A DNA stretch of 61,995 bases, filler included, from Dimorphilus gyrociliatus (Eukaryota > Animalia > Annelida), in assembly GCA_904063045.1 (NCBI GenBank). It is 3 parts of 3 records of this genome, joined end to end, with 100 filler letters (N's around TTAATTAATTAA, not from the genome) between each part and the next. Parts side by side here need not be neighbours in the genome. Positions count along the whole stretch, not along the records: positions 50,476 to 61,995 come from CAJFCJ010000261.1; 2 more parts are not named here. The stretch is one strand, 5' to 3'. The position numbers were made by a program, and so were the translations under genes. The notes beneath the pieces are model-generated. The model saw nothing but the letters and a program-made list of their open reading frames with translations. It searched no databases and was not told the DNA's origin. Every line of letters starts with the position of its first letter. Position 1 is the first letter of the stretch. Positions 6,290-57,577 of the stretch are shown here, one piece after another.

Positions 6290-6715
6290 AATGTGTTGAA
6301 CTATGAGAAGGCCATTTGGAAAAGTATTAGAGATACATGGCCAGATGTTACAATGCTTGGTTGATCTTTACATTGGTCACAAGCCATTTTTAAAACACTT
6401 CAGGTTAGAAAAAATACTAATAAGTGTCAATATTTAATCAAAGTTTATTATTTTACTTTTAGGATCTGGGTCACAGCCCAGAATTTAAAAAGAGAGAAGG
6501 AGAATGCCAATCAATGAAAATGATTATGGCTTTGCCCTGCCTTCCTCATACTTTAATTGTAAATCAATTCTAAAAAATAAAAAGTGAGCTGGCTGAAAGA
6601 ATTAAGTTTGAAGCTTTTGGCCTCTAGAAACTTGGTCTATTTTTAAATAATCAATCCGAATGAATAATGATCTGGAAGGATTTCATAATAGATTCAATAA
6701 AATCATGGAAATAAA
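6290..6715 (+). mobile_element. MULE transposase remnant (mirror about 3770-4200, minus)
   Basis: YEKAIWKSIRDTWPDVTMLG*SLHWSQAI (DFEKA...CxFHxxQAI motif) and RMNNDLEGFHNRFNK (RTNNxxEGWH motif). Confidence 0.7.
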
Positions 6716-8759: not shown

Positions 8760-9000
8760 GTTGTTTAAACTAGCTTGTTTAGAACTAGAAGCTCATTTTA
8801 CTCAATAAATATTCTTTCGATGAAATACTGGTGTTTTGTTGATTCATTTCTATCGATATTGCATTTGTTAGACTATTTTTGGATGAACTTTAAAGTTTCT
8901 ATTTGGACCCATACTTTGGCAAGTTGGTAAATGATTGGAAAGGACAATTACAGTTGTGACGAACCAGAAATTCCTACAATTACAATACAACAAAGTACAA
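8760..9000. repeat. Unclassified dispersed repeat; other copies at about 5120-5300, 11030-11250, 43930-44070 and their mirrors
   Basis: Shared segments TTGGAAAGGAC(A/G)AATACTG and CTACAATTACAATACAACAAAGTAC. No protein family recognised. Confidence 0.65.
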
Positions 9001-9116
9001 ATAAGGCACAGGTGACAGCCCACAATGCTACTTCAATGAATGTTATTTTGGTTTATGGGAGTGACAAAGCCAGAGCCTAGGAAGTAGATGAGTATCTTTC
9101 AATAATTAATGAATTA

Positions 9117-10091
9117 ATGTTGAGAATTAAAAGTAGTGGAGCCAATGTTGATGGTAATAGCTTTTTAAAGTACCATTTGATGACTGGGGCAGCTACAATT
9201 CCTGAAGGTATGGTTAATCCTGATCCTACTCAACCAAAATTCACTTATGATGGCATTCAAGATAACACTTTGGAAAAGACAATTGCAAGTCTTCTAATTG
9301 ATGCTAATGAGAAACCTAATACTACTTTGCTGAGACCCTATTCGGGTAGCAAAGATACTTGGGCCTTTAAGAGGAACTTTCAAACAGCTTGTGAATTAAA
9401 CCTTTGGGATCCAGAGGAGAAAAGAATTCGAATGCTGAGAAAATATACTACTGGAAGAGCCAGAGATGCTATTGAAAGTTTACCCTCCATGGCAAATGAA
9501 AATGAAATTTGGTATGCATTGGATGAAGAATTTAATCCAGATCCTATGGCTTACAAAAAAGAAATTGATAGATTGAGACAGTTCAATGATGAAACTGTCC
9601 AAAGTTTTATTAGAAGAAGTAAAGAACTTGGGGAAAAATTCCTACCATTCAATAATACTGAAATGGCTTGTGTTACTGAAAGAGTTAGAGAACTTCAACT
9701 GTTAACTGTATTCAGGAATGGTCTTAAAGGAAAAATTGTTAATCATGTGGAAAAAGATGGAAAGATTAACTCAGTTAATCAGTATATTAATTTGGCAAAA
9801 ACAGCAAAAATATTTTTTGATAATGCAAGAAAGGAAAGCAAAAATGAATTCAAACAGTACAAAAGGAGATTTGACAACAATCAGAGTAACTCAAATCAAA
9901 ATGAACATACATTTAAACCTTTTTCTCAAAATAGATTTCAACAACAAAGAAATGGAAATGCAGGAAATAATGAAAAAGGCAGCTTTAAGAGACTAATACA
10001 TGTTGGACCTGATGAACCGAATGAGACTGAAATTTCTAAAGGAAGAATGGCAACATTTAATCTCAAAAAAAGAGAAAATCGCACATTTTAA
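9117..10091 (+). CDS. gag: Ty3/gypsy-type Gag (capsid) ORF, 324 aa
   Basis: LLRPYSGSKDTWAFKRNFQTACELNLW...EIWYALDEEFNPDP...RQFNDETVQSF aligns with the Gag of the full element (ILKLYDGSKECSKFKEDFNQAC...EIWKALHDEFDLDP...KQMNGESVVQF). No PBS or LTR lies immediately upstream. Confidence 0.85.
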   Translation: MLRIKSSGANVDGNSFLKYHLMTGAATIPEGMVNPDPTQPKFTYDGIQDNTLEKTIASLLIDANEKPNTTLLRPYSGSKDTWAFKRNFQTACELNLWDPEEKRIRMLRKYTTGRARDAIESLPSMANENEIWYALDEEFNPDPMAYKKEIDRLRQFNDETVQSFIRRSKELGEKFLPFNNTEMACVTERVRELQLLTVFRNGLKGKIVNHVEKDGKINSVNQYINLAKTAKIFFDNARKESKNEFKQYKRRFDNNQSNSNQNEHTFKPFSQNRFQQQRNGNAGNNEKGSFKRLIHVGPDEPNETEISKGRMATFNLKKRENRTF

Positions 10092-10761
10092 GTGTACTTC
10101 TTTGGTAAAAGGCAGAAAAGATTTCCAATTTCGAATTAAATATCATAATGGAAGAGAGGTCATTGCCTTATGTGATACAGGAGCCTTTATGTCCTTTATT
10201 ACTGAAAAGGAAATCAGGCTAATGGACCATAAATTCATCATGATAGAAACTACAGACTTACCAACCATCACTTAAGCAGATGGAAAAGCTTTAAAGATTA
10301 AAGGAAAAGCAAAATTGAACATCCAGTTTGCTGGAAGAATTATGAAACAAGAATTTTTCATTATGGAAAAATTGGATATGGCTGTAATACTTGGTTGTGA
10401 CTTCTTACAAAATTCTGGAGCCATTATCAACTTTGCAACAAAACAAGTTTCCCTTCCATTCTTTATCAAAAGAGGGGAACCAGTTAAGAAGTTTATACAA
10501 CAAGCCCAAAATCAACAAACAAAATCTGGAAAACAAGCAAATATGACAAAAATAACTTTTGGAATGTTGGGAAAATATTTTCACAACTACCAAAACACCA
10601 CTGAAGAAGCTGGCACTAAAACCTATCCAGGCTCTGATTCAGAACTTATTATAAATTCATTTGAAGAAAGAATGAAACCACCTCAGAAGAAGAGTATCTA
10701 TTTTTGTTTTTTAAAATTTGTGATATTTTATGAAAAATGGGAAATTTTAAATATCTTTTAA
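10065..10761 (+). pseudogene. Retropepsin (aspartic protease) region in the +1 frame after Gag, with an in-frame TAA at 10273-10275
   Basis: ALCDTGA (DTG at 10174-10182) and ILGCDFL. It matches the C-terminal second protease of the 51720-56882 ORF; PTIT*ADG corresponds to PIITSADG. Confidence 0.85.
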
Positions 10762-11605
10762 ATAAATCAAATGTGGAAGTGTCTAAAATGCAAAATATTT
10801 TAAATGGATATTGCTAAAATAGGTTGTTAAGAAGTATATAAATATAATATTGAATAATATAATGATCACATTATACAGAATCTGTTGAGCTGAATTATAC
10901 ACTTGAAATTTAACAAAATAGGGGTAAAACCATACCTGATTGAAACCCTAGTCATATTAGGTGAAACCATACTCTTGAAATTCCAGACATTTTATTTATT
11001 AATACATAGGAAAAGCATATAGAATATGTACTTTGTTGTATTGTAATCATAGGAATATCTGCTTCTTCGGAACAGTATTTGTCCTTTCCAATTATTTATC
11101 AATTTACCAAAGTACTCACACAAATAGAACCTTTCAAGTTCCTACACAAATAGTCTTAAAAAATGTAATTTTTGTAGAAATTAATCAACAAAGTGCCAGT
11201 ATTTCAGTTAAAGAAAATATATTAAGTAAATGAGTTTCTAGTTCTAAACAATGTGAAGAATGGAAAAGTGAATTGATTGAATATGGTTTTATCAAAGAAA
11301 ATAAAGACTTAATAAAGAAACCTACAATTAACACATTTGCTGACTGGGTTCAAATAGTCAATGAACACATTGGACAAGAAATGAACTGGATAAATAAGAC
11401 AAATTAGAGTGGTTTATGCCTGTTAATTGTTGGTAATAATACACAAAGTCATACATCATCTTGAAAAACTCTAGATAAAAATGTTGAATGCATCAAGCTA
11501 AGAAGATATTTATCATATCCAAACTATTCAATAATGAACCTCCCATATCAAGACAGACACATAAGAGGATTAGGTGGACCAAGAAAAAGAGTGTTAATTC
11601 CACAT

Positions 11606-12217
11606 TGTACAACTTTGGTTATATTTTACATGCTTGAACTCTATTATTTTATGCAACATATACATGTACATCTTGAAACCTACGCAAGAAAATGCTATAA
11701 CACTGACCAAACATAAGTCTGATTAGTCAGTTTGAAGGCTCATCTTTAATTAACAATAAAGGTTTGGCCAAGTTATGATTTAATTAACTTGCCTAGGGTG
11801 TGGCCAAGTTATAATTCAATTAACCTTCCTAAATGTTCAACCTTGTAACATCCTCTTACTAAACATAAATATGAACTACACATTTCGGCAACTGTAAAGT
11901 GATGATTGGATGTCAGAGGCAAACCTCAAAGTATATAAATCCTCACTATTCTCATTCTGCATGCAGCTTCCATCTGAACCCAAGGACCTGGAAAGATAAC
12001 CTGGAAACAACTCCTCGACATTGGAAGACAGTTTGGTAACTTGGCAACCTGCTAATACAAACTATCTACTCTGCTATTGAACTCTCATATTGCACTTGCT
12101 TAAGTATTATTATTGTGAATAAACCATTTTAATTTAAACATTTGTTTAAAAGGTTTGAGTAGAACCAGTATTGTTATAACTTGCAAATGCATAGATTTTG
12201 CCAGCAAGAGCAGTACA
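11606..12217 (+). mobile_element. Solo LTR of the contig-3 gypsy family, 4-bp TSD ACAT
   Basis: TGTAC...GTACA termini, ACAT at 11602-11605 and 12218-12221, colinear with LTR 56943-57577 apart from substitutions and an about 20-nt deletion. Confidence 0.93.
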
Positions 12218-12514
12218 ACATAAAGCATTTGATTTATTAAAAACTGACCTCAAAGAGTCAAACTATGCTAATAAGATAATGCTAACAGACACAAATTATC
12301 AAGTTATTTCAAATATTGAAGCTATGAGACTGGAAAAGTTTCAAGGAAAAAAGAAATCCTTTTTGAGAAATGCAAATGAAACAGATAAACAAAATATTGT
12401 AACTTATATTGATAGGGGGTGTAGGAGAAAACATCCAATTATCTATACCAAATATTAATCTCTAAACCGTTGTTCATATAAAAAATTACTGTTCATGCTT
12501 TCTCCTAAGTTATG

Positions 12515-12610
12515 GACATTTTCTCCTGTGGACGTTCTCTCTTGTGGACATTTTCTCTTTAGTTGTGGACGATTTCTCCTGTGAATGTTTTCTCTTGTGG
12601 ACATTTTCTC
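12515..12610. repeat. Degenerate tandem TGTGGAC(A/G)TTTTCTC units, likely a DNA-transposon subterminal repeat (mirror about 17395-17490)
   Basis: Five or six imperfect units are directly visible. Confidence 0.6.
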
Positions 12611-13632
12611 CATAAACCAACGATTGGTATAGAGAAGGTGATAAAAGCTATGACATGTTGCTAAAAACCCAATCAACACCAATAGTAAAAACACTTATTT
12701 TGGCAAAAATTATATTGCACCTGATATTTCGGATATAGATAACAATTACATTCTGACAATGCTGAAAAATTCCAAATTGAAATCTACTACAAGATTCCGA
12801 CCAGATGATTTCAGATTGAAGCACAAAGGATTATGAAGTTTAAATTTAATGGTCTCATAATGCATATATAAAAAAAAACAGGAAAAATTATTACATCAGT
12901 TATGGCTAACAAGCCTGCGTCTTCCACATCTGTTTTGAATGAGATATAAGAAGTTTGACATGCATTTTTTCATATTGTTTGTTTCTTTGTTAATTCCATA
13001 GTGGCACCATCTGTAATGGTCAAAGAATCTATTTCCTACAGAATATAGATCTTTTTAAAGGTCTAGACTCTTATTCTACTAAATAAAAGTCTTTCTAAAG
13101 CTCCACAATTATAAATTCAATGAAATAACACTTTTTTCTAAACCTCCACCATTCCTCCACATCAAATCCTTTTGTTGTACTTTCATAGAAGGGTGAATTT
13201 TGTCTTTTACCCTTTGAGTTCCTCATTATTAATTTTTCTTTTTGTTTCTGTAAGCCCCTCAATCCAGGATTTACTACTGCTCTCATTGTTGCTTCTCCTT
13301 TCAATCTGTCCTATCTTTCAGATCCTTTTTATCTTGTCCTCTGTCCTGGAGTTTTGTGTGCGGCATATTACCCTCTGTCTCTTTCATCTTCTTCACTGTC
13401 TGACTATCCCATTCTTTTACTGAGGCAGGCAGTCAAATTTCACATCCCTTGTTTTGATTGCACAAGCCATCTTAATTTATCACATTTGCTTTACTGGTAT
13501 ACTTTCGTCCTTACATGACTGCTTTTACTTTAACCCTAAATCCAACCCTTGTCTGTAACTAGCCTTTTGCATTACTCCCAACTCTTATATGAGCGGTTAC
13601 TGTGTGGTTTATACCGTCCCATTATACTGAGT

Positions 13633-14266
13633 TGTACAACTTTGGTTATATTTTACATGCTTGAACTCTATTATTTTATGCAACATATACATGTACATCT
13701 TAAAACCTACGCAAGAAAATGCTATAACATTGGCCAAACATAAGTCTGATTAGTCAGCTTCAAGGCTCATCTTTAATTACCAATAAAGGTTTGGCCAAGT
13801 TATAATTTAATTAACTTGCCTAGGGTGTGGCCAAGTTATAATTCAATTAACCTTCCTAAATGTTCAACCTTGTAACATCCTGTTACTAAACATAAATATG
13901 AACTACACATTTTGGCAACTGTAAAGTGATGATTGGATGTCAGAGCAAACCTCAAAGTATATAAATCCTCACTATTCTCATTTGGCATGCAGCTTCCATC
14001 TGGACCCAAGGACCTGGGAGAATCATCTGGAAACAACCTCCACTGGAACCATCCATCTACTCCTCAACATTAGAAGACAGTTTGGTAATTTGGCAACCTG
14101 CTTTTACAAACTATCTACTCTGCTATCGAACTCTCATATTGTTACTTGCTTAAGTATTATTATTGCGAATAAACCGTTTTAATTTAAACATTTGTTTAAA
14201 GGTTCGAGTAGAACCAGTATTGTTATAACTTGCAAACGCATAGATTTCGCCAGCAAGAGCAGTACA
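13633..14266 (+). mobile_element. Solo LTR of the same family, TSD GAGT/GAAT (one mismatch)
   Basis: TGTAC...GTACA termini, nearly identical to 56943-57577. Contains a duplicated TGGCCAAGTTATAATT(T/C)AATTAAC motif, TATATAAAT and AATAAA. Confidence 0.92.
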
Positions 14267-20907: not shown

Positions 20908-21007
20908 NNNNNNNNNNNNNNNNNNNNNNNNNNNNNNNNNNNNNNNNNNNNTTAATTAATTAANNNNNNNNNNNNNNNNNNNNNNNNNNNNNNNNNNNNN
21001 NNNNNNN
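20908..21007. other. Artificial contig linker (44 N + TTAATTAATTAA + 44 N)
   Basis: Exactly 100 nt with a six-frame-stop core; identical to 50376-50475. Confidence 0.97.
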
Positions 21008-32314: not shown

Positions 32315-32456
32315 ATATTTTTAACATTTGACCAAAAGTTATTATCCATACCTCAAAATCTAATGTCAATCTCTTTCAATGAATTTTCAAATAGAGTACA
32401 AACTTCCGCTGAAATTTTATTTTCACTTAGGCAGATACTTTCAAGTTTTGTACATT
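32315..32456 (-). pseudogene. Short inverted piece of an LRR gene closely matching 40545-40685
   Basis: TTAACATTTGACCAAAAGTTATTATCC...GGCAGATACTTTCAAGTTTTGTAC is present at both loci. Confidence 0.85.
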
Positions 32457-34969
32457 ATCAGGATTTTTTGATATTTGTCTTGGACTTGAAAATTCCATAA
32501 TTACTTTAAAGTCTCTTTTTGTAACATTTCAATTAATTGATAATATATATGATAAAGAAAGCTATAGTGGTTTTTGTAAATTTTTAAAGAAATGTACTCA
32601 AATTGAACATTTTACATTCAATGATCGATCAAATTATGAAAGTGAATTATTTACATTTTGCCCTTCTTTGGAATCTTCTGCAAGTACACTAAGAGAAATT
32701 CATTTATGTGATATATATTTTAATCCGAAAAATTCACACTACATTGAGAATTTATTGTTAAAATGTGAAAATATTGAAAGTATAAATATAGATATGCATA
32801 ATCACAACGAATTTCGACTATGGTCCATATTTTCTGCACTTAATTTATCAGCAAAAAATTTGAAAGAGATTAATATTTACTTCAAAATGAATTCCGAAAT
32901 GCTTATGCAATTTGAGAGACTTTTAAATAATTTCTCAAAACTTGAAAGTGTAACCTTTCCATCAATATCCAGTAATTTAGGAAATGATGATATGTTTACT
33001 ATTTGTCAAGGATTGCAGAAATCTTGTAAAACTTTAAAAAAACTAGAATTTATCTTTTGTTCATTAAATGCAAAATGTTTTATAAACATAAGAAATCTTT
33101 TACTCTTTTGCTCAAATATTGAGACAATTATTATTGAATATAGTACCTGTATAGAAAATTATGCATTAAATATTTGTGATGGACTTGAAAATTTTTATAG
33201 TTCTTTAAAATTTCTATATTTTGATAGATGCATAAATGTGGAAAGATTGCTGACACCTATAGTAAATTTCCTTATAAAATGTTCATATAGACCAGAGATA
33301 CAACTTGAAAGTGCTTCTATGGATGGACATATCCGGCTTTTGAATGTAATTGATAAATGACTATTTCATCAATTACTATAAAAGAAATCAATTTGGATGA
33401 ATCTCGCTTATCTATTCAAATTATAATAGATTTGGCAACTATAATACAACAGCATACAAGAATTGAATCTGTAAGCTTAGTTGGTATAAATGATGAAAAT
33501 GGAATTTTGGTGTGTGGATTTAGATGATATTCACTATAATAACTTAAAAATATTTTTAGAGAAATGTTCAAACATTGAAAGATTAGATCTATCAAGAACC
33601 TCTTCTATTCCAAATGATTGCTTTTCAAAAATCATTAAAGCTATGGAATATTCATCCAAAAAATTAAGAAACTTAAATTTAAGTTTTTGTAATATCAATA
33701 ACGAAAATGGTAAAAAGTATTGCAAATCTTTTGAAGAAGTGTTCAAAAATTGAATCATTTGATCTAAACAGTAGCCAAGATATTGGAGGTTCATTAACAA
33801 ATATTTGTAAACAACTGGAGAGATCAGCAACCAATTTGAAAGAAATTAATTTCAGTAGATGTAATATCAGAGATGAAAGTTGTAAAAGTCTAACACAACT
33901 ATTGAGTAAATGCTCTAATATAGAAAAGATTATTTTATCCTCAAATTGGAATTTGAGCGATGAATTCAATAATATTTTAAAAGAATTAGAAAAATCCTCA
34001 ACTACATTGAAAGAAATTTGTTTTGAAAGTTGTAATTTGGCTAATAATCGCTTAATAAATTTTGGAGATCTTATGAAAAGGTGTACAAAGCTTGAAAATA
34101 TTAACATAAGCCATAATAAAATTTCATCAAAACTATGCCTTGAATTTGCCAATTTATCACATTCACTAAAAGTCTTAGATATTAGTTTTTGTGATATGGG
34201 TCAAACAATTTGGCTTGATATTAGAAATATGTTAAAAAATTTTCATGATATTCCAACTATTCATTTACTTGAAAATACTGATCAATATTACATACCTTTT
34301 GGTTTTACAGGGAAAGTCAATGATAAAGAAATTTCATTTTGTTTAACTATATATATAAAAAATACTTTGCCATCAAACATTGGAAATATTATTTTAAATG
34401 CCTATGAAGTTTCTACAGTTCATCTTGGTGGAAGATTTCATAATAGTTTTGAACTTTTGACCATCTTAAAGTATTTTTCCCAGGCTGAAACTGATGTGGC
34501 TAGTGTTGACTTTAGTTGTTGTGATCTTAATGAAAAAATGTGTAATTATATTGGGAAAATTTTTATGTCATATCCTAAAATTCTATCTGTTGATTTTTCC
34601 TGCAATCCAAATATGTCAGATGCTTTTGGATATCTATTCAATCCACTTCAAATGTCAGGCTATATCTTAAAACAAATAGTCCTTTGTAATTGTAATTTAA
34701 CAGAGAATTCATGCATGATTCTTGTAGAACTTTTATCTGACTGTAATTCTATCCAATTAATAGATCTAAGTTTTAATGAAAATATGGGAAATTATATTGA
34801 AGACATTATTAAAGAACTTCACAACTCAAATCTTTACTTGAAGGAGATTTATCTGGAATACTGCAAACTAACAGAGAATGTTTATGAAAGCCTTAATAAT
34901 CTATTAGTTAAATGCCCAAACCTTCAATCTATTGAGCTTGGAGGGAATGAAAATTTAATGAAAAGTTAA
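32456..34969 (+). pseudogene. Intronless RNI-like LRR gene, 5'-truncated and frameshifted (ORFs 32668-33360, 33490-33753, 33707-34969)
   Basis: Colinear with the 1058-aa LRR protein (e.g. ICQGLQKSCKTLKKLEF, IDLSFNENMG). At least two of the frameshifts fall in A runs. Confidence 0.85.
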
Positions 34970-39752: not shown

Positions 39753-42700
39753 CTAACACGAATAGGACTCATAAGCATACACCACAGTCGATTTGTAATA
39801 TTCATACCTTTCAATAAAATCTTCATTACCTTCCAGCTTAATGGATTGAAGTTTTGGACATTTATTAATCAGCTTGTTAAAGTTACAACAAGTATTATTC
39901 TTTAAATTGCAGTATTCTAAATTGATCTCCTCCAAACAGAGAGATGACTTGCAAAGATTTTCAAAAACTTCCATAATTACATCTCCCATATTTTCATTTA
40001 AACTTAAATCAATTGTTTTAATGTGTGGACATATATATAAAAGATCTGCAAGATCTTCACAGTCTTTTTCTCCTAATTTACTATTAGAAAATGCAATTTC
40101 ATTTAAATAACAACTTGAACTTTTAAGTCCATTGCATAATTCTCTAAAATTATATGATATGTTTGGATTATTTGAAAAATTTACAGATTTAATATAACTA
40201 GAAGAATTCAGAAGATTTCCAATAATTTCATATATTCTTAAATCAAGATTGCAATTACTGAGATTGACACCAATTAGACTATCTTTACATTCCCAAAAAT
40301 ATTGAAGAATTTTTACAAGTCCAGGTATATTTTGGAATGTTTTACCAAGATGTTCTGTTGATATTTTATATGAATTTAATATAATATTTCCAATATTTTG
40401 TGACATATCATTATTCCTTGTATTGATTTCACAAATTAATGTCATTTCTTCATCATTGATTGTCCCTTTAAAAACAAAACATATCAAATCATCTATTGAA
40501 TTTCCATGCAAATGAATAATTGGAATATGGTGAAATTTTTTCAACATATTTTTAACATTTGACCAAAAGTTATTATCCGTACCACAAAATCTAATGTCAA
40601 TCTCTTTCAGTGAATTTTCAAATAGAGTACAAACCTCCGCTGAAATTCTATTTTCACTTAGGCAGATACTTTCAAGTTTTGTACACTTTTTCAATAATTT
40701 GCCAATAAATTTTAAATGACTATCATCTAATTGACAGTTTTTAAAACTCAATTTCTTTAAAGTAGCAGAAGATTTTTCCAATTCTTTGAATATATTGTTT
40801 ACTTCATCTCTCAAATTGGAAGATAATATTACCGTTTCAAGTTTACAACATTTACTCAACAGTTGCGCTAAACCGTTTTCAGATTCATCAACGACAGGAC
40901 AAAGTGAAAAATCAATATTTTTTAACTTATTGGCTGATCTCTCCAATCCTTTAAAAATATTTCTTAATGAGCTTCCAATAACACAACTTAGATCTATTGT
41001 TTCAATTTTTGAACAATTCATCAACAGTTCACTAATGTTTTCAACTTTTTTGTCATTAACGTTACATGAACTGAAATTTAAAATTTTCAAATTTTTTGAT
41101 GATTTTCTCAAACCTTTAATAATTTTTGAAAAGCAATCATCTGATAAAGAAGCATTGCCTGAAAGATCAATTTCTTCAATGTTGGCGCATTTCTCTAAAA
41201 ACTTTCCTAAATTAGTATAATGACTGGTGTCTTCATGTTGAGAACTCAATTTTAAAACTTTTAAAGTAGACACGGAATTCTGTAAACTATCCCAAATACT
41301 TGTAATCTGATTGCTTAATTCATTATCCTTAAATGAGAATGATTGAATTTTACACTTTTTCAAAAAATTACAAACTTTATTAAATGATCTATGATTCCAG
41401 TCTCCTTGTGAAATATGAATTCTTTCAATATTGTCACGTGACATTTCCAGAGCACTGCAAACTCTGGATAGCATATTTTCATCATTTGCTTTAATTAATT
41501 CTACTGATTTTATTCTTGTATGTTGTCGTACAACAATTGCCAAATCCTTTAATACATTGAGATTAAGAGAAAGTTCACTTAATCTAATCTCTTTTATTGT
41601 ATTTGATGATATAGTCATCTGTTCAGTTATATTTAACAATAAATCTTTTATAGGTATGGTTGCCTTCAAATTCAAAAAATCAATTAATTTTAGCCTATTT
41701 GGACATTTGATTAACAAGCTTAATAGAGGAATCCACGATTTAACGGCAGTTTTGCCTTCACTCAAATAAAGTAACTTTAATGAATTAGATGAATTTTTAA
41801 GGCCATCACAAATATTTAATATATCTTTCTTTTTATAGAAAATATTTTGAATATAAATAAATTCAATATTTGAACAAAATTTTAAGAATTTTCCAATATT
41901 TTTATAGCAATTTGAATTTAGAGCGCATTTTGTAAAATCTAAATTTTTCAAAGTATTACAAGAATTTTGCAAACCTTGACAAATTTTAAAGAAATCATCC
42001 TCTGGCACATCATATACAATTATTGGAAATGTTACCATTTGAAGTTTTGAGCAATTGTTTAATAATTCCTCAAATTGTTTAAGCATTTCCCTATTCATTC
42101 CGCATACAATATTTAATTCTTTTAATTTTTTTGCCAGTACATTAAGTGTAGAAAATATTGACCAAGGTTGAAAGTCTTCAAAACTACCATGTATATTTAT
42201 ACTTTCCATATTTTCACATTTTATTAAAAGATTTTCAATACAACGCAAATTTTTTAGTTTGCATTCAAAAAGTAATAAATCAAGTTTTCTTAGCGTCTTT
42301 GCAGATATTTCCAACGAAGTGCATAATTTAAGCAACTTTTTACTAGAACTTGAATAACAATGGATTGTGATGTTTTCAATACGATTACATTTCTGTAAAA
42401 ATTTATCAAAACATCTATGAGTTCTTTCATTCAACGTTTCAAATGTTATAGAAATTGATTTTAAAGAATTCAGGGAATTACTTAGTCCAAGCAAAATATC
42501 TAACCATTCCGATGTCTTTTGAATGTTTTCTTCTAAATTGAATACTTCAATTTGAAAGCATTTAATCAATAGCTTCCTAATCCATTTACATACACCATTA
42601 TCAATGCCAGAACGCCGAAATGTTATTTCTTTTAATTTTTTTGACGAATTGCCTAATCCTCTACAAATATTGGATAATCCATCTTTTAAATTAATATTAC

Positions 42701-42929
42701 CATTAATACTTATCTTTTCGATTTGAGTACATTCATTTAATAATTTTGAAATAGGAATACTATCTTCGTAATTAAGTTCAGCGTAATTAAAATTAATTTC
42801 TTTCAATGTTTTTGTTGATTTACTAAGGCCTTTGCAGATGACTGGCCAAATATATTCTGGATATAGCATTGCCTCTTGTTCTGAAATAGACATCATTTTT
42901 TTTATCGAACAATTTATTTGTCGAGTCAT
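39753..42929 (-). CDS. Intronless 1058-aa ribonuclease-inhibitor-like LRR protein (no NACHT, TIR, signal peptide or TM seen)
   Basis: Uninterrupted ORF with about 28/29-aa alternating LRRs throughout (LKEINF..., CxxIExIDLSxN). Confidence 0.9.
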   Translation of the reverse strand: MTRQINCSIKKMMSISEQEAMLYPEYIWPVICKGLSKSTKTLKEINFNYAELNYEDSIPISKLLNECTQIEKISINGNINLKDGLSNICRGLGNSSKKLKEITFRRSGIDNGVCKWIRKLLIKCFQIEVFNLEENIQKTSEWLDILLGLSNSLNSLKSISITFETLNERTHRCFDKFLQKCNRIENITIHCYSSSSKKLLKLCTSLEISAKTLRKLDLLLFECKLKNLRCIENLLIKCENMESINIHGSFEDFQPWSIFSTLNVLAKKLKELNIVCGMNREMLKQFEELLNNCSKLQMVTFPIIVYDVPEDDFFKICQGLQNSCNTLKNLDFTKCALNSNCYKNIGKFLKFCSNIEFIYIQNIFYKKKDILNICDGLKNSSNSLKLLYLSEGKTAVKSWIPLLSLLIKCPNRLKLIDFLNLKATIPIKDLLLNITEQMTISSNTIKEIRLSELSLNLNVLKDLAIVVRQHTRIKSVELIKANDENMLSRVCSALEMSRDNIERIHISQGDWNHRSFNKVCNFLKKCKIQSFSFKDNELSNQITSIWDSLQNSVSTLKVLKLSSQHEDTSHYTNLGKFLEKCANIEEIDLSGNASLSDDCFSKIIKGLRKSSKNLKILNFSSCNVNDKKVENISELLMNCSKIETIDLSCVIGSSLRNIFKGLERSANKLKNIDFSLCPVVDESENGLAQLLSKCCKLETVILSSNLRDEVNNIFKELEKSSATLKKLSFKNCQLDDSHLKFIGKLLKKCTKLESICLSENRISAEVCTLFENSLKEIDIRFCGTDNNFWSNVKNMLKKFHHIPIIHLHGNSIDDLICFVFKGTINDEEMTLICEINTRNNDMSQNIGNIILNSYKISTEHLGKTFQNIPGLVKILQYFWECKDSLIGVNLSNCNLDLRIYEIIGNLLNSSSYIKSVNFSNNPNISYNFRELCNGLKSSSCYLNEIAFSNSKLGEKDCEDLADLLYICPHIKTIDLSLNENMGDVIMEVFENLCKSSLCLEEINLEYCNLKNNTCCNFNKLINKCPKLQSIKLEGNEDFIERYEYYKSTVVYAYESYSC

Positions 42930-43409
42930 AAAAAGTCAATTTTGTGATCCACTGAAATCTCTGCTAATCTTCTTTATTGTGCTGTTTTTTATGATATATA
43001 TGGGTATATATAAAAAAGCTTTTTCTTCCTGAAAAGCAAATTAAGAGAATGTTTAACATGGGGGAAAAAAATCACAAAAATGTTTCATACTCAACAAAAA
43101 AAGAATGAAAAAGTAAATTAAACTAAACACACCTGATTAAAAAAGGCGGCTCTAACGAAATCTAAAAACAAGTTGAACTTTTTCTTGTTAGGATTCCTTG
43201 ATCAAGCATTCCAAGAGTAGAACTGAGAATATATGGATATAAAACTTTATTGGTTATAAGATAAGATAAAATCTCATAGTTTCAAGTACACTTGTAAAGG
43301 TAATGAATTATTCATATTTGTTTTGGATTCGGTCAAGAAGGCCTGTATTGCTACTAACTGACTCAGAGATATTCTAAAATATATTAGGAGTTAGACAAAA
43401 ATCCGATCT

Positions 43410-43800: not shown

Positions 43801-44430
43801 GAGTTATGCTGATGAGACAGACTTGTTACACAGTAATACATGTTGGCTATCTAAAGATTATATTTTATAATCTGTGATATAACAAGTCTTTCATATTTTT
43901 GTTATATGTGAATTATGAGACAATCAAATTTCACGTTTGTTAAGACTATTTGCTGACGAATTGGAAAGGTTCTATTTGTTTGCGTACTATGGTGAGTTGA
44001 TAAATGGCTGGTAAGGACAAATACTGTTCAGACTTAGGAGAAATTCCATCAATTGCAATACAACAAAGTCAAACAGATCAATCATTTTATTGGAAAAAAA
44101 CCTTATTTAACAAAATATAGCATTTCTTTTTAGGAAGTTTGAGTAAATCTTATAGTAAAAGCTTTGTAGTTTAGGTGAGAATCATTTAAATAATGCCTTC
44201 TTTACTTCACATAGATTTTATCAAGTTACAAATCTTTTCGTTGATATTTCTTCTATATCAGAAAATATAACAAAAGTTGTACAATATACTGTTTTTAACT
44301 GATCATTAAAGAATAATAATGTTACTCTATTGTGTAGATATAGTTATTGTGATATTAACTACTAATTTAGTTTTTTTATAGGCCAACAACACCCAATAAC
44401 ATCCATTTATATTTGAATAATATTCCAAAT

Positions 44431-46745: not shown

Positions 46746-48683
46746 ATGAAAAGTTTTATATTTTCACTTTGTAAGTATTTTAATTCTGTTTTTCTTTTTT
46801 GCTTTTTGTAATTATCTACTCTATTCTATATAGTTTGCATTTTGCAACTGTTTTCATCGTCACTTGGTTTTATATGTCCTGTTGATGATCAGTTTAGACC
46901 AATTAATGGAGCGTATAGAGATCCAGAGTTCTGTGGTGCCTATTATCAATGTATAAATGGAACTGCTTTTCCTCAGAATTGTCCTCTTGGTCTGTTCTTT
47001 AGATTTTCAACATTGGATTGTAAGATTAGAACTTGCACTGAACCTGAACTTGCGGATTGCCCACCTCTAGGGAATGCAACCATTGAAAACGAACCTTTGG
47101 AATGTAAATCTGGACAAATAGATTTTAAAACTCCATGCTTCACAAAAACAAATGAGTGCGCTCCAAATTTAAATGCAACAGTTGCTAGTTTAGTAGATTG
47201 TAGAATCTATTACCATTGTCAAAATGGAGTAGCTTGGCCGCAGCAATGTCCTCCTGGATACTTTTTCAATCCTATAGTAAATCCACGAGATTGTACAGTG
47301 CAATTATGTGTTCCACCCCAAGATGCGAAATGTCCTAGTGACGGAAACTGGTCCGAATGGTCAGCATGGGGCGATTGCGAACCAAGGTGTGGTGGTGAAG
47401 GAATTCGTACTAGAACAAGAGATTGCAATAATCCCCCACCCTCAAATGGTGGTCGTGAATGTTCTGGATTACCAATTGAAATTGAAAATTGTCAAACACC
47501 TCCTTGTCCATCTGGCGAAAAACCATGCTTTATGGTATCACTGCAGTCAACCATTAGTGTATCAGAGGGAAGAATCCAATGGAGTTCTATTGATGTAAAT
47601 CAAGATAATCTCTACAATCCTTTGACCAGTCGTTTGAATATTAAAGAGGCAGGAGTGTATTACTTTGCGATGACTGCAACAATGAGCAGACAAACTGGAG
47701 CACATCTTCGCCTTCAGAATATTGGAAGGGAGATTGATTTGAAAAGAGATAAAAATGAAGATGGTATAGAGCAAATAAGTAGAAGTGGTTTATATTTCCT
47801 AAATCCTTTGTTTAGTCCATACATCAATCAAATGTTACCCACCGCATCCCTACTAGGTAGCAATGCTGGAAAGGATACAAACTGGGTAGGATTTAAATAT
47901 TCAACAGATAATTATATTTTTGTTGGGTCAGATAGTAGTTCTCTGGAACAAAATTATATTCCATTAAATATTCTTGTAAATATGAGAGGCTATTCAATCG
48001 GTGCATCAAATACTGAATTCATAAACTTGGAAGGTGGAAAATATTTTATTCATTTTGGTTGTGGCATTGTGCCAAATGTTAATCTAAGAATCAGCATTTA
48101 TAGTAATAATCATAATACTCCTTATTCAAGGATACAAAGACTTGAAAACCAAATGGCTAGTTCCGATCAACTATCACGTAGTTTCATTAATGCATTACCA
48201 GCTAATTCTAAATTGCAATATAGATTGGATGGAGGCCATAATTCAACAATAGGCCTACCTACATACCTTATGGCATTCAAATTAAATGATAGTCTACCAA
48301 TTCTCTTTGTGCATCAAAGTTACAGATATCCATCATCTTGTTCTACTTTTATGCAGTTGATGGCTTTTAATGTTGTAATTGAAGATACAACTAATTCATG
48401 GACTATTAGAACTAGGGAATATAAAGTTCCAGTTACTGGTACATATTACATTGATATTAGTGTGGTTGTCATACTCAGAAACACTGTTGAAGCCTATGTA
48501 GAAGTTAATAATATTAGAAAATTCAGACTATTGAAATTTGGTAGATCTCATGGAAGATCAGAGCTTATATCAAAAGGTGGATTAATTCAAATGTTTAAGG
48601 ATGATATCTTAACTGTAAGATATAGAGGTTGTATGACAGCTGATGACATGGTTTCATCAATGGTAATCTTTTTACTACCATAG
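46746..48683 (+). CDS. Secreted protein of about 624 aa: signal peptide, 2x chitin-binding type 2 (CBM14), TSP1, 3x C1q-like; exons 46746-46770 and 46834-48683
   Basis: The 63-nt GTAAGT..TAG intron yields MKSFIFSLFCILQLFSSSLG. Motifs: CGAYYQCING...CPLGLFF, CRIYYHCQNG...CPPGYFFN, WSEWSAWGDC...RTRTRDC..GGREC, and GVYYF / GKYFIHF / GTYYID. Confidence 0.9.
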
Positions 48684-50375: not shown

Positions 50376-50475
50376 NNNNNNNNNNNNNNNNNNNNNNNNN
50401 NNNNNNNNNNNNNNNNNNNTTAATTAATTAANNNNNNNNNNNNNNNNNNNNNNNNNNNNNNNNNNNNNNNNNNNN
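50376..50475. other. Artificial contig linker (44 N + TTAATTAATTAA + 44 N)
   Basis: Identical to 20908-21007. Confidence 0.97.
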
Positions 50476-51485: not shown

Positions 51486-51719
51486 GTTAGCTCTTCCTGT
51501 GTTGGCTATAGTTGAATGGTTGAAAATTTTGTGTTGTTGTTCCACTCTGATAGTTATTCCATCTTCTAACTCTATATATTGTGGTTCCACTTCTTGTTGG
51601 GAATCTAATTGTTCAGAGATGATTTTAGTCTCATCTAAAAATATGACTGACTCATTGTCTGTGTCACTTGTATTTTTTTCTTTGTGTCTCACTTTCATTA
51701 TGATGTTTTAATTTTTCAT

Positions 51720-51723
51720 TTAT

Positions 51724-51760
<37 letters not shown>

Positions 51761-54700
51761 TTTCTGTGTCATCACTTTCAGATGAGCTTGAAGGTTCATT
51801 GAGACTGTAATTACTGTCTGTTTTGAAAGTATTGCTTGTGTCATAACCAGTATCAGAATTAGTAACTTCCATCTCTGAGTCATCACTATCTGAGCTTTCT
51901 GATGAAGAGTCATGCTGTCCCATCATGGCTATAGTGACTTTGTTTAGTTGAGGTTGCCTTATTCTTTCAGCCAGGTTCCCTTTCCTTCTATCAAATTTGA
52001 GAGAACACTGTTTAGCTTCAAAATTGAGGTTTGCTCCCACAGTTTGTAGGAAATCACAACCAAGTATTATTGCTATGTCTAGATTTTCCATAACTATAAA
52101 TTCTTGTTCCATACTTTCTCCAGCAAATTGGATATTCAGCTTTACGCTTCCTTTTTGCTTTAAAGCTTTCCCATCAGCTGAAGTTATAATTGGTAAGCCA
52201 ATTGTTTCTTTATCCATAATTGTAACATCCATTAACTTGATTTCTTTTTCAGTAATAAAGGATCTCAATGCTCCTGTGTCACACAAGGCAATGACTTCTT
52301 GGCCTTTTTGATTCTTCAAACGGAATTGGAAGTCATTTCTTCCTTCTACCTGAGAAAGATATTGGAGGTGTGTTATTTCCTTCTCCACAAGGTGAAAGAT
52401 TGTTGTTGCTTCTTTCCCTGTTTCCAACTTATTAGATTCATTGGCTAGTCTTAATCTGCTACCATGTACCAACTTGCATGTATTATCATCCATTTGTATT
52501 TCATATATCCACTTTTGATGATTGACTTTTGTTATTCGGTATGGGCCTAACCATTTTAAAGAAGGGATTTTTGTTATTGCAATTCTTGCAGCATCATTTC
52601 TTAAGAATACTTCATCATCAACCTCAAAATATTTTGGAAGATTGAGATTTCTATTCTTTCTTTCCCTATATTGTTCTTTTGCCATGATGGATTTACAGAA
52701 GGCTGTAGCTCTTAACTGTACTAATTGCTGCTGGTGATTGAATACAAATAGTACATTTGTTTCAGGAGAGGTAGTATGCATTGTTACATCAATCAGTGTT
52801 CTTGTGCTGGTGCCAAAAAGAAGTTCCTGGGGTGGTAGTCTTGTACTTCCTACAGGTGATTGATTCAAAAATGCTTGAATCAAGGGTAGGTTTGCAACCC
52901 AGTTATGCTGATTTTCTTCCACCACTAATTTATTGATTTCCTTCCTCACTTCTCTATTTCTTCGTTCAACTAGTCCATTGCTCTGGCTTCTATAAGCTGT
53001 TGTTTGGATTTTCTCAATACCTAATACCTTCATAAACTCTTTAAAAGCTTTACCAACAAAGTTTCTTCCTTGATCTGTCAACATTTGTTTTGGAATTCCA
53101 AAAATGGGAAAAAATCTGTTGAAAAGAAGGTTTGCAATTTCTTTACTGGTTTGCTGTTTGAGTGCATATAAAACTGTGTATCTACTGAAATGATCCACTA
53201 TCACAAGTATGAATCTGTATGACTTAACCATGGGTAAGGGTCCCATTATATCCATGGCTACCAACTCCATTGGTGATGCAGGGTGAAAGGTTTCTACCAA
53301 AGGGTATACTCTACTCCTACCATTCATTTGTTCACACAAAGTGCAATCCTTTATTGAATTCTCAATCATAATCTTTAATTTTGGGTGCCAAAAGGTCTTT
53401 GTAATTATTTGTAATGTCATTCTGGGTCCATGGTGATTGTGAATTTTATTTTTATGGAATTTAGGGAGCAGAGTTAGCATCAAATGGTCAGGTAAAACCA
53501 GAATGTTTCTTTCTTCAAGGATAATCCAGATCATTTCCTTGTGAACAAACATCTCCATTATGAAAGGTGTAAAAGTTCCAAAATAAGGAATAGGTAGCTG
53601 ACCATCCAATGTTAAATATTCTTTAATTGATTTTAAATTCACATCTTTTTCTTGCTCTGACTGTAAGTCAACAGAAGACAAATCAATTTTCTCTTCACTG
53701 TTATCACTGGTAGCTACAAAAGTTAACTCTGGTGTATGTTCATACTGTTCCATTTTAACTGAAATAGAGGGAGAATTCTCCTTTTTGATCTTTCCATGAA
53801 TTAGCTCTTCAAATGTTACTTTCCTTGGGGGTGTATATTCTTCTAATCTTGTTAATGCATCTGCTCTATTTTTTCGTCCTGTCACATAGTTAATTGTAAA
53901 TTTTAAATCCATTAAAGCCATGACCCATTTTGCTGTGCTGACATTCAATTTGTTTTGCTTAAATGTTTGTACTAGACTCTGATGGTCAGTATATAAAAAG
54001 AATGGCTTGTCTTGAAGGTAATGTAAAAATTTCTTTACAACCCAGTAAACACCAAATGCTTCCTTTTGATAGGCTGCATATTTCATTTGATTATTGTTGA
54101 ATTGTTTTGAAGCGTAGGCAATGGGTTTCATTGTTTTCTTCCCATTCTCATCTACATAAACTTGTTCAAGAACTCCTCCTACAGCTACATTCGATGCATC
54201 TGTTGTTAAGTGAAAATCTTTAGCAAAATCAGGTAGTTGTAATACAGGAGGGTTAACTACTGCATCTCTCAACTTGAAAAATGATTGCTTGGCTTCCTCA
54301 GTCCATTGCAATTTATCCTTTTTCCCATGTAGTTTCATTAACATATACAGAGGTTTAGCTACTCTTGCAAAATCTTGTATAAATTTTCTGTAATAGCCAC
54401 AAAATGCAACAAAGCTTAGTAGTGAATTTGCAAACACTGGTGGCTGTAAATTATATAATTTATCTGTCTTGGACTTATCTGTTTCAATCCCCTTTTCTGA
54501 TACAATGTGTCCCAAGAATTGAACTTGTTCTTTCAAAAACACACATTTACTTAGTTTAATCTTAAAATTGTACTTTTGAATCTGTTGAAGAATGGTCTCC
54601 AATGCTTCCCAATGTTGGTCCAGCGACTTGGTAAATATTATTATGTCATCAAGGTAGTTTAGGCACAAATGCTTTACATCCTTTAGCACAAATGAATTCA

Positions 54701-56882
54701 TTACATAACTAAAATGAGGAGGGGCATTGGTTAATCCAAAAGGCATCTTAATAAATTCAAACAAGCCAAAAGGTGTAATAAATGCTGTTTTAGACCTATC
54801 TTCTTTCTTGATGTTAATGTGGTGGTATGCACTTGTCAAATCCATTGTAGAAAAGAATTTATTTCCTCCTCCCAAATGGTCAAAAAGATCATCTTGATTT
54901 GGCAGTGGATACTTGTTTTTAACTGTCATTTTGTTTAGTTTTCTATAATCTACACACATTCGTAGACTACCTTCCTTCTTTCTTACGAAAACAATTGGTG
55001 AAGCCCAATTGCTCTTGCTTGGTTGAATAACTTTGCTTTTTACCAATTCAGCTATCTGTTGCTTACATTCTTCTTGTTTTTGAGGAGGCATTCTATATGG
55101 CCTTTGTCTATATGGTGTTGAACCTGGTTCAAGAGTTATTTCCAAGGGTGGTACCTCTGGATTGCCAATATCAAATCTGTCTTCTGCAATAGTTTCTTTA
55201 TATTTTGCCAGAATTTGGGTAACTTTGTTCTTCATCTCGGGATTTTCTTGTTCAATTGTTGTCTGAAGGGTATGTATTTGACTCTCATTCTTTTTCATAA
55301 TAAGAGGAACTGGGTAAAACCCTTTGAAAGATAAGTGTTGTGTTCCAACAGGGTAATTCTTTTCTGTACCTGGCTGGAGTATAATCTGTCTCTTGCCAAA
55401 GTCAAGGGTAGCTCCATTTTGTTGTAGAAAGTCACACCCAATAATACATTGTTGTGTAATGATTTTGTTGATCAGAAAGCGTTGTTTAATAATCTTTTCA
55501 TTAAAATAAAGTCTGAGAATGATTTCTCCACATATCTCGATGCTATTTCCTGAAGCATCTCTAGCATTTTTCACAGTTTGTTCTGGGAAGGATGCTTTTC
55601 CTTGAACTTGTCTTAATACCTTTTTTGAAATGAAAGATCTGTCACTACCAGAGTCTATCAAGGCATCAAACTTAAAACCAGTATTAGTTTCAAATTGTCC
55701 AATAAATGTTGAAGCATTTCGCTCAGATTGTTTGCTTTGTAACAGCTGACAAGTGGATTCGTCACTATCTGAAAAACAGAGAATATCTTGAACTTCGTCG
55801 TTTTCTGACATGCTTTCATTGTCTAATGTTTCTAATTTTTGTAGCTTAGGTTCCTCTTTCAGTATCGTCTTTGCTGGTTGATTTTTCTTATAATACCTAT
55901 TTGTTGTAGTTGGTGCATACTTTTGGACTTTTTGGCTTGAAAACTTTTCTTTAGTAGCATTTTTGTTGTCAGGTACATGCTTTCTATTCCAGAAATTTGG
56001 GGTTTCTGTAGAAGCATCTTTTCTGATTACCTGGGTCTTTTTGGTCTCTTTTCTTTGTTGAGTTTCCAATTTTGACACCATTGTGATCGGTTTTCTTTGA
56101 GTTAGTTTTAATGAAGTTTCTGCTTGCTTAGCAGCCTCATATAGTTCTGCCAATGTTTGACATTTAGGATGTAAGGTGTACACTAAATGTAGAATATCCT
56201 GTTGTAATCCTCTTTGTAAAACTTCCATCAGTTTTATTTCTTTCATAGTTGCAAGCAATTGTGGTTCCATTGGTCTAGGTGGAGAAAACCTCTTTATCAA
56301 TTTCTTTGCTCTATTAACAAACTGAACCACACTTTCGCCATTCATTTGCTTTAAGTTAAGCAATTTCTCCTGATACTCCAAAGGATCTAGATCAAATTCG
56401 TCATGGAGGGCTTTCCATATTTCCTCCACAGTAGGCTCTCCATCCAGAGCCAACACCAAATCCTTTGCAGGACCAGTTAAATAATCTAAAAGATTTGCTT
56501 TCACAACATCTTCTCCTATCCAACCATAAGCATAACATGCCTGATTAAAGTCTTCTTTGAATTTTGAACACTCCTTGCTTCCATCATACAACTTGAGAAT
56601 AGTTCTTTGAGGGCGGTCCCAAGCAGCCCTTAATGCTTGAATTACTGTTGTGATATCAACATTTGGGTTCTGTGCTGGGTGATGTGTTCCATCTCCATGA
56701 TCTGTTGGAATTGTGATTCGATTTCTTTTCATTTCACTCACCAATCTATCATAGTCTTCAATTAGTCTTTGTTGCCTTTCTGACATTCCTGCTGGCTGAA
56801 TTGTAATTGTTGGAGTTGCTGGGGTTGAAGGGTTAGAGTCTGTAACTGCCCCAGTGGCGTTTCCATTTCCTCCTTCTGCCAT
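51720..56882 (-). CDS. gag-pol: Gag-Pol polyprotein, 1720 aa from ATG 56882: Gag, PR1, RT, RNase H, integrase, PR2
   Basis: LIDSGS (55647-55655), YLDD (54645-54656), TDAS...E...TDH RNase H, HH/CC zinc finger, MDIMGP / TDQG / GLVER integrase triad, GPY motif, then LCDTGA (52272-52280)...ILGCDFL. Confidence 0.96.
51727..51758 (-). repeat. A32 homopolymer at the end of the pol ORF
   Basis: 32 T on the + strand, translated as a poly-Lys run. Confidence 0.95.
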
Positions 56883-56920
56883 ATTTACTTTCTCAAAACT
56901 TTTGAATAAACCAAAAGAAT

Positions 56921-56938
56921 ATCCTGTCGACTGCGCCA
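56921..56938 (-). promoter_or_regulatory. Primer-binding site, tRNA-Ser type (TGGCGCAGTCGACAGGAT)
   Basis: Lies 4 nt after the LTR end and is complementary to the ...ATCCTGTCGACTGCG-CCA type 3' end of animal tRNA-Ser. Confidence 0.88.
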
Positions 56939-56942
56939 AATT

Positions 56943-57577
56943 TGTACTGCTCTTGCTGGCAAAATCTATGCGTTTGCAAGTTATAACAATACTGGTTCTA
57001 CTCGAACCTTTAAACAAATGTTTAAATTAAAATGGTTTATTCGCAATAATAATACTTAAGCAAGTAACAATATGAGAGTTCAATAGCAGAGTAGATAGTT
57101 TGTAATAGCAGGTTGCCAAATTACCAAACTGTCTTCCAATGTTGAGGAGTAGATGGATGGTTCCAGTGGAGGTTGTTTCCAGATGATTTTCCCAGGTCCT
57201 TGGGTCCAGATGGAAGCTGCATGCCAAATGAGAATAATGAGAATTTATATACTTTGAGGTTTGTCTCTGACATCCAATCATCACTTTACAGTTGCCGAAA
57301 TGTGTAGTTCATATTTATCTTTAGTAACAGGATGTTACAAGGTTCAACATTTAGGAAGGTTAATTGAATTATAACTTGGCCACACCCTAGGCAAGTTAAT
57401 TAAATTATAACTTGGCCAAACCTTTATTGGTAATTAAAGATGAGCCTTCAAGCTGACTAATCAGACTTATGTTTGGCCAATGTTATAGCATTTTCTTGCG
57501 TAGGTTTTAAGATGTACATGTATATGTTGCATAAAATAATAGAGTTCAAGCATGTAAAATATAACCAAAGTTGTACA
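56943..57577 (-). repeat. 5' LTR, 635 bp
   Basis: TGTAC...GTACA termini. Boundaries are confirmed by the solo LTR copies with TSDs. Confidence 0.95.

What the first reader, a model, noticed from the sequence alone, without database searches (positions are those of the whole stretch)
51990..52340. Ty3/gypsy Pol carrying a second aspartic protease after the integrase
Seen: the uninterrupted ORF has a normal PR1 (LIDSGS...CIIGCDFLQ) before RT and, after the integrase GPY module, a second complete retropepsin (VIALCDTGA...IILGCDFLQ). The two are clearly divergent, so this is not a recent tandem copy. Established: Ty3/gypsy Pol normally has one protease, and known post-IN additions are mainly chromodomains. 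Inference: PR2 sits directly before the env region and may process Env or a Pol-Env junction. I know of no described element with this layout but could not search.
Basis: partly seen in the sequence, partly recalled or inferred. Interest (0 to 1): 0.88.

Follow-up and report, generated by a model that had tools for sequence, protein, structure and literature searches.

The report
Retrotransposon with a captured second protease
A retrovirus-like mobile element, likely from a small marine worm, encodes a second protease-like domain behind its integrase; the domain was likely captured from a sister element and is predicted to cut itself free rather than to mature the envelope protein.

Summary
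Observation confirmed. One open frame (57026-51720, minus strand) reads Gag-PR1-RT-RNase H-IN-GPY/F-PR2. PR2 (51990-52322) keeps DTG and GCD motifs, passes four Pfam cut-offs alone, folds as a retropepsin and is 29% identical to PR1. Contigs of 3 of 4 runs laid span the IN-PR2 junction. The element matches the catalogued Dimorphilus gyrociliatus element Dgyr_errantivirus_1 (Dingle family, 7 copies) by primer site, LTR length and estimated length; no sequence comparison was possible. The texts I could search do not mention a second protease. PR2 is not a copy of PR1: it is 66% identical to the protease that sits directly after Gag in a decayed sister element in this window, upstream of that element's integrase and env remnants. 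It was likely captured by recombination. PR2 versus that relative gives dN/dS 0.19, but selection since capture and activity are untested. An Env-processing role is weakly supported: Env has its own signal-like start about 500 bases downstream and is catalogued as a separate ORF. Extra retropepsins also occur in two other gypsy lineages, at other positions. New variant of a known kind; interest 0.5.

The parts
56943..57577 (-). 5' LTR of element A, 635 bases, TG...CA
   Evidence: other copies at 92-98% in the window
56927..56938 (-). Primer binding site, 4 bases inside the LTR; same 12 letters as listed for Dgyr_errantivirus_1
   Evidence: tRNA-Ser assignment is recalled, no tRNA gene in the window
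51720..57026 (-). Single Gag-Pol frame, 1768 codons stop to stop, first Met at 56882
56190..56501 (-). Gag capsid-like region (Pfam PNMA, E 0.0016, below cut-off)
   Evidence: 34% to Gag of element B
55371..55694 (-). PR1, aspartic protease in the ordinary position (DSG)
53910..54986 (-). Reverse transcriptase and RNase H
52422..53492 (-). Integrase: zinc finger, core, GPY/F C-terminal module
51990..52322 (-). PR2, second aspartic protease (DTG, GCD); similarity to element B's protease runs from about 52394 to 51912
51677..51900 (-). S/D-rich then K-rich low-complexity tail; the window is shorter than the runs' contigs across 51677-51771, so the real end of the frame is open
51486..51707 (-). 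Acidic segment, 57% identical to residues 277-330 of D. gyrociliatus gene model P0001
50476..51485 (-). Start of the env-like gene: Met at 51485, hydrophobic stretch from 51470; broken in the window near 51386, 50704 and 50586 and cut by the assembly gap
   Evidence: family call rests on papers and a weak Atlas lead
9081..10659 (+). Element B (decayed sister element): Gag followed by a PR2-type protease that holds one stop and a frame break at the Gag-PR border in the window
11264..11605 (+). Element B: integrase C-terminal remnant, then env remnant, both downstream of its protease
   Evidence: 0 of 1000 shuffles reach either score
11606..12217 (+). Solo LTR of family A inserted into B's env remnant, 4-base duplication on both sides; not B's own LTR

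Best explanation
This env-bearing Ty3/gypsy element encodes a second retropepsin, PR2, in frame behind its integrase; PR2 was likely captured by recombination from the ordinary Gag-adjacent protease of a sister family in the same genome, and is predicted to dimerise during particle maturation and cut itself off the integrase at the processing sites it brought along. Shown: the domain order, the intact motifs and fold, the junction in independent contigs, and the kinship of PR2 with Gag-adjacent proteases. Inferred: the direction and route of transfer (template switch between co-packaged RNAs, or nested insertion followed by deletions). Inferred and untested: catalytic activity, the cleavage sites, and the idea that self-release is what lets the integrase tolerate the addition. 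I put capture at about 0.75 and activity at about 0.65.
For: Element B has Gag then a PR2-type protease (66% to PR2, 31% to PR1), with an integrase C-terminal remnant and an env remnant downstream (0 of 1000 shuffles each), so this protease type holds the ordinary position there. P0067 has Gag and a PR2-type protease in one frame (47%), with a Gag only 28% like B's. PR2, P0066, B and P0067 form one group (SH-aLRT 100 in a 149-row quick tree; 87/96 in a 28-row tree); PR1 and PR2 as exclusive sisters are rejected, p-AU 0.023. A related integrase tail, P0068, ends without a protease. PR2 versus B: dN/dS 0.19, bootstrap 0.08-0.36, 120 codons. PR2's end branch is short, 0.17 against 0.27 for P0066. 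Similarity extends past the core on both sides, including a shared motif about 20-30 residues after it. The frame stays open for 233 codons after the integrase tail.
Against: The dN/dS covers both branches and includes time before any capture; no test of selection since capture was possible. No near-identical donor was seen, and none was seen whole (no Gag-PR2type-RT record). The place of P0066's protease fragment in its element is unknown, so post-integrase PR2 may be older and wider. P0001 is ambiguous: the 22 residues after its acidic segment resemble env (1 of 2000 shuffles, picked after seeing the alignment), so the gene model may join separate pieces. A group of PR1 plus all PR2-types is not rejected (p-AU 0.60), which fits sister families but also an old duplication. 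The main X5 contig skips 60 bases inside PR2; if X5 is DNA this is an in-frame loss of about residues 1592-1611 and PR2 would be dispensable there. Cleavage sites are by eye only.
Confidence: 0.5

Rival explanations
1. PR2 is a captured passenger: PR1 does all processing, and PR2 looks intact only because the capture is recent or loss is slow.
For: Family copies are near-identical (7 at over 98%; PMC13524379 supplement row), so little time is sampled. Relatives replicate with one protease (P0068 tail). The X5 skip inside PR2 would be a tolerated deletion if X5 is DNA.
Against: No donor above about 80% identity stands out over PR2 in X1 or X2 (depth there matches the rest of the element; depth is a poor measure). 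Motifs, fold and a 233-codon open tail are kept, and the end branch is short. The X5 skip has GT...AG ends on the opposite strand and intron-like size, which reads better as splicing.
Confidence: 0.3
2. PR2 serves Env: it would cut a Pol-Env junction if the frame reads on into env, or trim Env's cytoplasmic tail.
For: The acidic segment and the env start lie in the same frame as Gag-Pol in the window, and the stretch between is not reliably assembled. An unrelated element, P0178/P0070, has one frame with Gag-PR-RT-RH-IN-chromodomain, an env-like region (by eye) and then a second intact-motif protease. Tail trimming of Env by the viral protease is known in gammaretroviruses (recalled).
Against: The catalogue names the ORF GAG-POL, not GAG-POL-ENV. 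Env has its own Met and hydrophobic signal-like stretch, which would send it to host enzymes in the secretory path (established for gB-type Env; passages). PR2 descends from Gag-adjacent proteases. Two other elements place an extra protease between RNase H and integrase, far from any env.
Confidence: 0.12
3. PR2 arose by an old duplication in the Dingle ancestor and sat after integrase from the start; elements B and P0067 later moved it next to Gag.
For: PR1 and the PR2-types may be one wider group (86/83 with P0151; p-AU 0.60). P0066 could be another post-integrase copy.
Against: It needs a duplication, a move with loss of PR1, and loss after integrase in P0068; capture needs one event. All outgroup elements have the protease next to Gag.
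Confidence: 0.07
4. The junction is an assembly error or a one-off nested insertion in this copy.
For: The window holds mirror-image repeats and indel-rich stretches, and X1/X2 may be the assembly's own source.
Against: Contigs of X1, X2 (study P1) and X5 (study P2) bridge the junction with 1, 1 and 11 differences. No LTR or Gag lies around PR2. The estimated full length, 9320, fits the catalogued 7-copy element, 9314.
Confidence: 0.01

Closest known systems
Annelida_Polychaeta_Dgyr_errantivirus_1 (PMC13524379) / Dingle family (PMC7854359)
   Same: Same 12-base primer site 4 bases inside the LTR, LTR 635 against 630-635, estimated length 9320 against 9314, fused GAG-POL, gB-type env; closest RT is a D. 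gyrociliatus gene model.
   Different: The catalogue lists a chromodomain at the Pol C-terminus and no second protease; I find PR2 and no chromodomain in the window. Sequences and figures of both papers were not visible, so identity is inferred.
Canonical Ty3/gypsy (Metaviridae) Pol
   Same: PR-RT-RNase H-IN order, GPY/F module, LTRs, primer site, purine tract.
   Different: A second clan AA protease after integrase in the same frame.
Unnamed element P0178/P0070
   Same: One long gypsy frame with two intact-motif retropepsins and an env-like region.
   Different: Second protease lies after the env-like region; 23% to PR2; RT in a different branch.
Unnamed elements P0039 and P0119
   Same: Two retropepsin domains in one Pol.
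   Different: Second protease lies between RNase H and integrase; 19-23% to PR2; RT in a third branch.
Ginger1 transposases (PMC2836005)
   Same: A protease domain attached C-terminal to a Gypsy-like integrase with GPY/F.
   Different: DNA transposons; OTU or Ulp1 cysteine proteases, not retropepsins (passages).

Membership tests
Ty3/gypsy LTR retrotransposon | PR-RT-RNase H-IN order | tested here: met
Ty3/gypsy LTR retrotransposon | TG...CA LTRs, primer site, purine tract | tested here: met
   5' LTR and primer site in the window; second LTR with purine tract only in an X1 contig end, the window has a gap there
Errantivirus (operational: gypsy with env) | Env-like ORF after pol | tested here: inconclusive
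   Cys-rich ORF with signal-like start; no Pfam or PDB hit, fold failed (pLDDT 31), Atlas lead Monjiviricetes_fusion 0.84; gB-type call comes from the papers
Dgyr_errantivirus_1 / Dingle | Primer site, LTR length, element length | tested here: met
   length assumes two X1 contigs adjoin
Dgyr_errantivirus_1 / Dingle | Sequence identity above 98% to the catalogued copy | not testable with these tools
   sequence is in a repository that could not be read
Dgyr_errantivirus_1 / chromodomain-bearing elements | Chromodomain after integrase | tested here: not met
   no Pfam Chromo hit; 10-row chromodomain profile scores at most 0.1 bit on six frames; the unassembled stretch 51677-51771 could not be checked
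Clan AA retropepsin (PR2) | D-T/S-G motif and hydrophobic-G-x-D motif | tested here: met
Clan AA retropepsin (PR2) | Retropepsin fold | tested here: met
   (predicted model)
Clan AA retropepsin (PR2) | Homodimer with paired catalytic Asp | not tested
   no complex prediction was run
Clan AA retropepsin (PR2) | Proteolytic activity | not testable with these tools
   needs a bench assay

The most novel reading that the evidence does not exclude
gB-type env-bearing gypsy elements have repeatedly recruited a second, dedicated retropepsin that matures or releases the envelope protein (here before env, in P0178 after it), a two-protease division of labour not described for LTR retroelements in the papers I could search.
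Probability: 0.15. Interest if true: 0.75.

Novelty: new variant of a known kind. Interest (0 to 1): 0.5.

Why it matters
LTR retroelements are taken to use one protease, and tight control of its activation is central to particle maturation (established knowledge). A recently multiplied family that carries two divergent, intact-looking proteases in one polyprotein is a natural test of how specificity and timing are shared, and shows pol modules being swapped between sister families. It also suggests that the catalogue's C-terminal domain label for this element needs a second look, and that extra proteases in gypsy polyproteins (three positions seen here) are overlooked by surveys that trim to RT and IN.

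Tried and rejected
No whole genome is held, so copies could not be counted or compared directly. No RNA holder listed. Homolog searches: IN+PR2 region gave 65 proteins, none covering both parts well; env and PR2 against longer proteins gave nothing. Contig scans found no related loci. Env fold without an alignment failed; no PDB sequence hit. The VIA-align search did not run. No complex prediction was sent, since a retropepsin dimer would pass by likeness. Rejected: that B is a non-autonomous partner sharing A's LTR (the LTR is a later solo insertion with a 4-base duplication). Rejected as two-protease elements: P0007 and P0095 (two whole PR-RT-RH-IN units in a row, probably joined gene models) and P0028 (two weak hits, 19 and 17 bits). 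P0001 first looked like proof that the acidic segment is a PR-RT linker; downgraded to ambiguous. Base composition does not set PR2 apart (GC 0.35, GC3 0.27). Of 25 displayed substitution rows inside the frame, 22 were classed (15 silent, 7 not; 56370, 56388 and 56930 left out; 401 rows in all were not displayed); none of those displayed lies in the PR2 core, too few to test. Depth from contigs was not used as copy number. Three look-ups of earlier findings returned nothing.

Full report
Observation. The minus-strand frame 57026-51720 is open for 1768 codons. Pfam gives a weak Gag capsid hit, RT, RNase H, integrase zinc finger and core, and two aspartic-protease stretches, the better one at residues 1575-1677, after integrase. 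The 250-residue piece holding the integrase tail and PR2 passes four curated cut-offs alone. A model built on a 55-row alignment has pLDDT about 90 or more across the PR2 core and matches Ddi1 and retroviral proteases. PR1 and PR2 are 29% identical.

Is the junction real? Six listed runs hold the stretch or part of it, none on record as RNA. Of 4 runs laid, 3 have one contig bridging integrase and PR2: X1 51772-53213, X2 51772-55497 (both study P1, possibly the assembly's own source) and X5 52252-54591 (study P2); X6 does not cover it. These are contigs, not raw reads. The window is shorter than the X1 and X2 contigs across the low-complexity stretch 51677-51771, whose letters were not shown, so the true end of the Gag-Pol frame is open. 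The env-like gene is broken in the window near 51386, 50704 and 50586; X1, X2 and X5 differ from the window at those places, so the breaks may be assembly errors.

What element is it? It has a 635-base LTR, a primer site 4 bases inside it and an env-like ORF with Met at 51485 and a hydrophobic stretch. The closest Pol relative is a Dimorphilus gyrociliatus gene model, P0001 (RT sister pair, SH-aLRT 99 among 68 rows), so the host is likely that worm or a close relative. PMC13524379 (seen: passages, part 1 of 5 of Results, one methods section, supplement rows, part 2 of 3 of one supplement; no figures, no deposited sequences) lists Dgyr_errantivirus_1 with the same 12-base primer site, LTRs of 630-635, a span of 9314, gB-type env and 7 copies at over 98% identity. 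Adding window and X1 contig lengths gives 9320, assuming two contigs adjoin. I take it as the same family; this is inferred. PMC7854359 (seen: passages, search of 5 supplement files; figure not seen) names the species' main gypsy family Dingle, with gB-like env (preprint passages). 'Protease' occurs once in the main text of each paper, not for a second domain. The catalogue lists a chromodomain for this element; I find none in the window, though the unassembled stretch could hide one.

Where did PR2 come from? The window holds a decayed second element, B, at 9081-11605, mirrored twice at 99%, probably one locus. Its Gag is 34% like A's and is followed by a protease 66% identical to PR2 and 31% to PR1. 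Downstream lie an integrase C-terminal remnant and an env remnant (scores 67 and 65; 0 of 1000 shuffles reach either). The LTR beside it is a later solo insertion with a 4-base duplication. B-type sequence is present in X1, X2, X3 and X5 at about 95% identity, not as this exact copy. A profile-free HMMER search of 1.84 billion representatives with the IN-tail+PR2 piece gave 112 hits, none spanning both parts in one stretch; the top three were a PR2-type fragment in another D. gyrociliatus gene model (P0066, 68%), an unnamed Gag+PR2-type frame (P0067, 47%) and an integrase tail that ends without a protease (P0068). PR2, P0066, B and P0067 group together. PR1 and PR2 as exclusive sisters are rejected (p-AU 0.023), while PR1 plus all PR2-types is not (p-AU 0.60) (28 of 149 rows, chosen as 13 rows of interest plus the 15 nearest; 110 columns, many long branches). 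So PR2 is a sister family's ordinary protease in a new place. Capture is the simplest reading; direction is inferred, not rooted. P0001 carries a segment 57% like window 51677-51528 upstream of RT, but the next residues resemble env, so it may be a joined gene model and I give it no weight.

Is PR2 functional? PR2 against B's protease gives dN 0.20, dS 1.06, ratio 0.19 (bootstrap 0.08-0.36; 120 codons). That shows constraint on the path between them, not since capture. PR2's end branch is short, and similarity runs beyond the core on both sides, where processing sites would lie; that last step is by eye. Against: the main X5 contig skips 60 bases within PR2. Its ends read GT...AG on the plus strand with a pyrimidine run, as does a 66-base skip in the LTR, and the species' median intron is 66 bases, so I read both as introns of an antisense RNA; X5's kind is not on record, and if it is DNA the skip is an in-frame deletion that argues for dispensability.

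Mechanism. Most likely (0.5): PR2 is active, and during maturation releases itself from the integrase tail at the sites captured with it, leaving PR1 to process Gag-Pol, with possible overlap. Passenger: 0.3. Env processing: 0.12; Env has its own signal-like start about 500 bases on, and the catalogue names the ORF GAG-POL while using GAG-POL-ENV and POL-ENV for others. Old duplication: 0.07. Artefact: 0.01.

How unusual? Among 180 proteins screened locally (179 fetched plus this ORF), 97 had integrase hits and 5 of these a protease after it: this ORF, P0070 and P0178 (one cluster; protease after an env-like region), and P0007 and P0095 (tandem whole Pol units). Two more, P0039 and P0119, have a second protease between RNase H and integrase. 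The set was retrieved with IN and PR2 queries and includes copia-type integrases, so it gives no frequency. The three layouts sit on separate RT branches. Phrase searches for a second, additional or doubled protease in gypsy elements found no description (0, 1, 0, 1, 7 and 0 papers listed; of these I read passages of PMC2836005 and PMC6431247 only; the rest were seen as listings). One search found only the Dingle paper. PMC12440569 was seen as abstract and outline; as listings apart from the papers named. Repbase, GyDB, Dfam, subscription papers and the figures were not searchable, so prior description is not excluded.

Verdict. A real, rare layout in a very likely known element: new variant of a known kind, interest 0.5.

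Noticed in passing
window 52193-52252 and 57259-57324: Run X5 skips two short stretches with GT...AG ends on the strand opposite to the element (60 and 66 bases): likely introns of an antisense transcript across the element, if X5 is RNA.
   Followed up: partly
window 1-20900: Nested mirror-image repeats at 96-100% identity centred near 5240 and 15000; may be fold-back artefacts of amplification or assembly. X1 and X2 do not cover much of 5400-8100 or 12250-13600.
   Followed up: partly
window 11606-12217 and 13633-14266: Two solo LTRs of family A (92% and 98% to the 5' LTR); the first has an exact 4-base duplication, the second one mismatch in 4.
   Followed up: partly
window 8775-9002 and 11024-11251: Two inverted copies (81%) of a dispersed repeat flank B's Gag-PR block; further copies near 5110-5368 and 43926-44073.
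   Followed up: no
window 46812-48683 (+): Uninterrupted 623-codon ORF with two chitin-binding CBM_14 domains, a TSP1 domain and C1q domains.
   Followed up: partly
window 32431-34969 and 39753-42935: Long ORFs that look like leucine-rich-repeat proteins by eye; not scanned.
   Followed up: no
proteins P0039, P0119: Gypsy Pol with a second retropepsin between RNase H and integrase, preceded by a stretch that looks OTU-like by eye (no Pfam hit).
   Followed up: partly
proteins P0178, P0070: Single 3129-residue frame: Gag, PR, RT, RNase H, IN, chromodomain, env-like region, second retropepsin, hydrophobic stretch.
   Followed up: partly
protein P0066: D. gyrociliatus gene model joins a PR2-type fragment to a TIR domain; may be a prediction artefact.
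   Followed up: no
proteins P0072, P0073, P0078, P0086: Short proteins made of two or three retropepsin domains without RT or IN hits.
   Followed up: no
window 50376-50475 and 20908-21007: Assembly gaps with an identical 12-base linker between runs of N; the first cuts element A inside env.
   Followed up: yes
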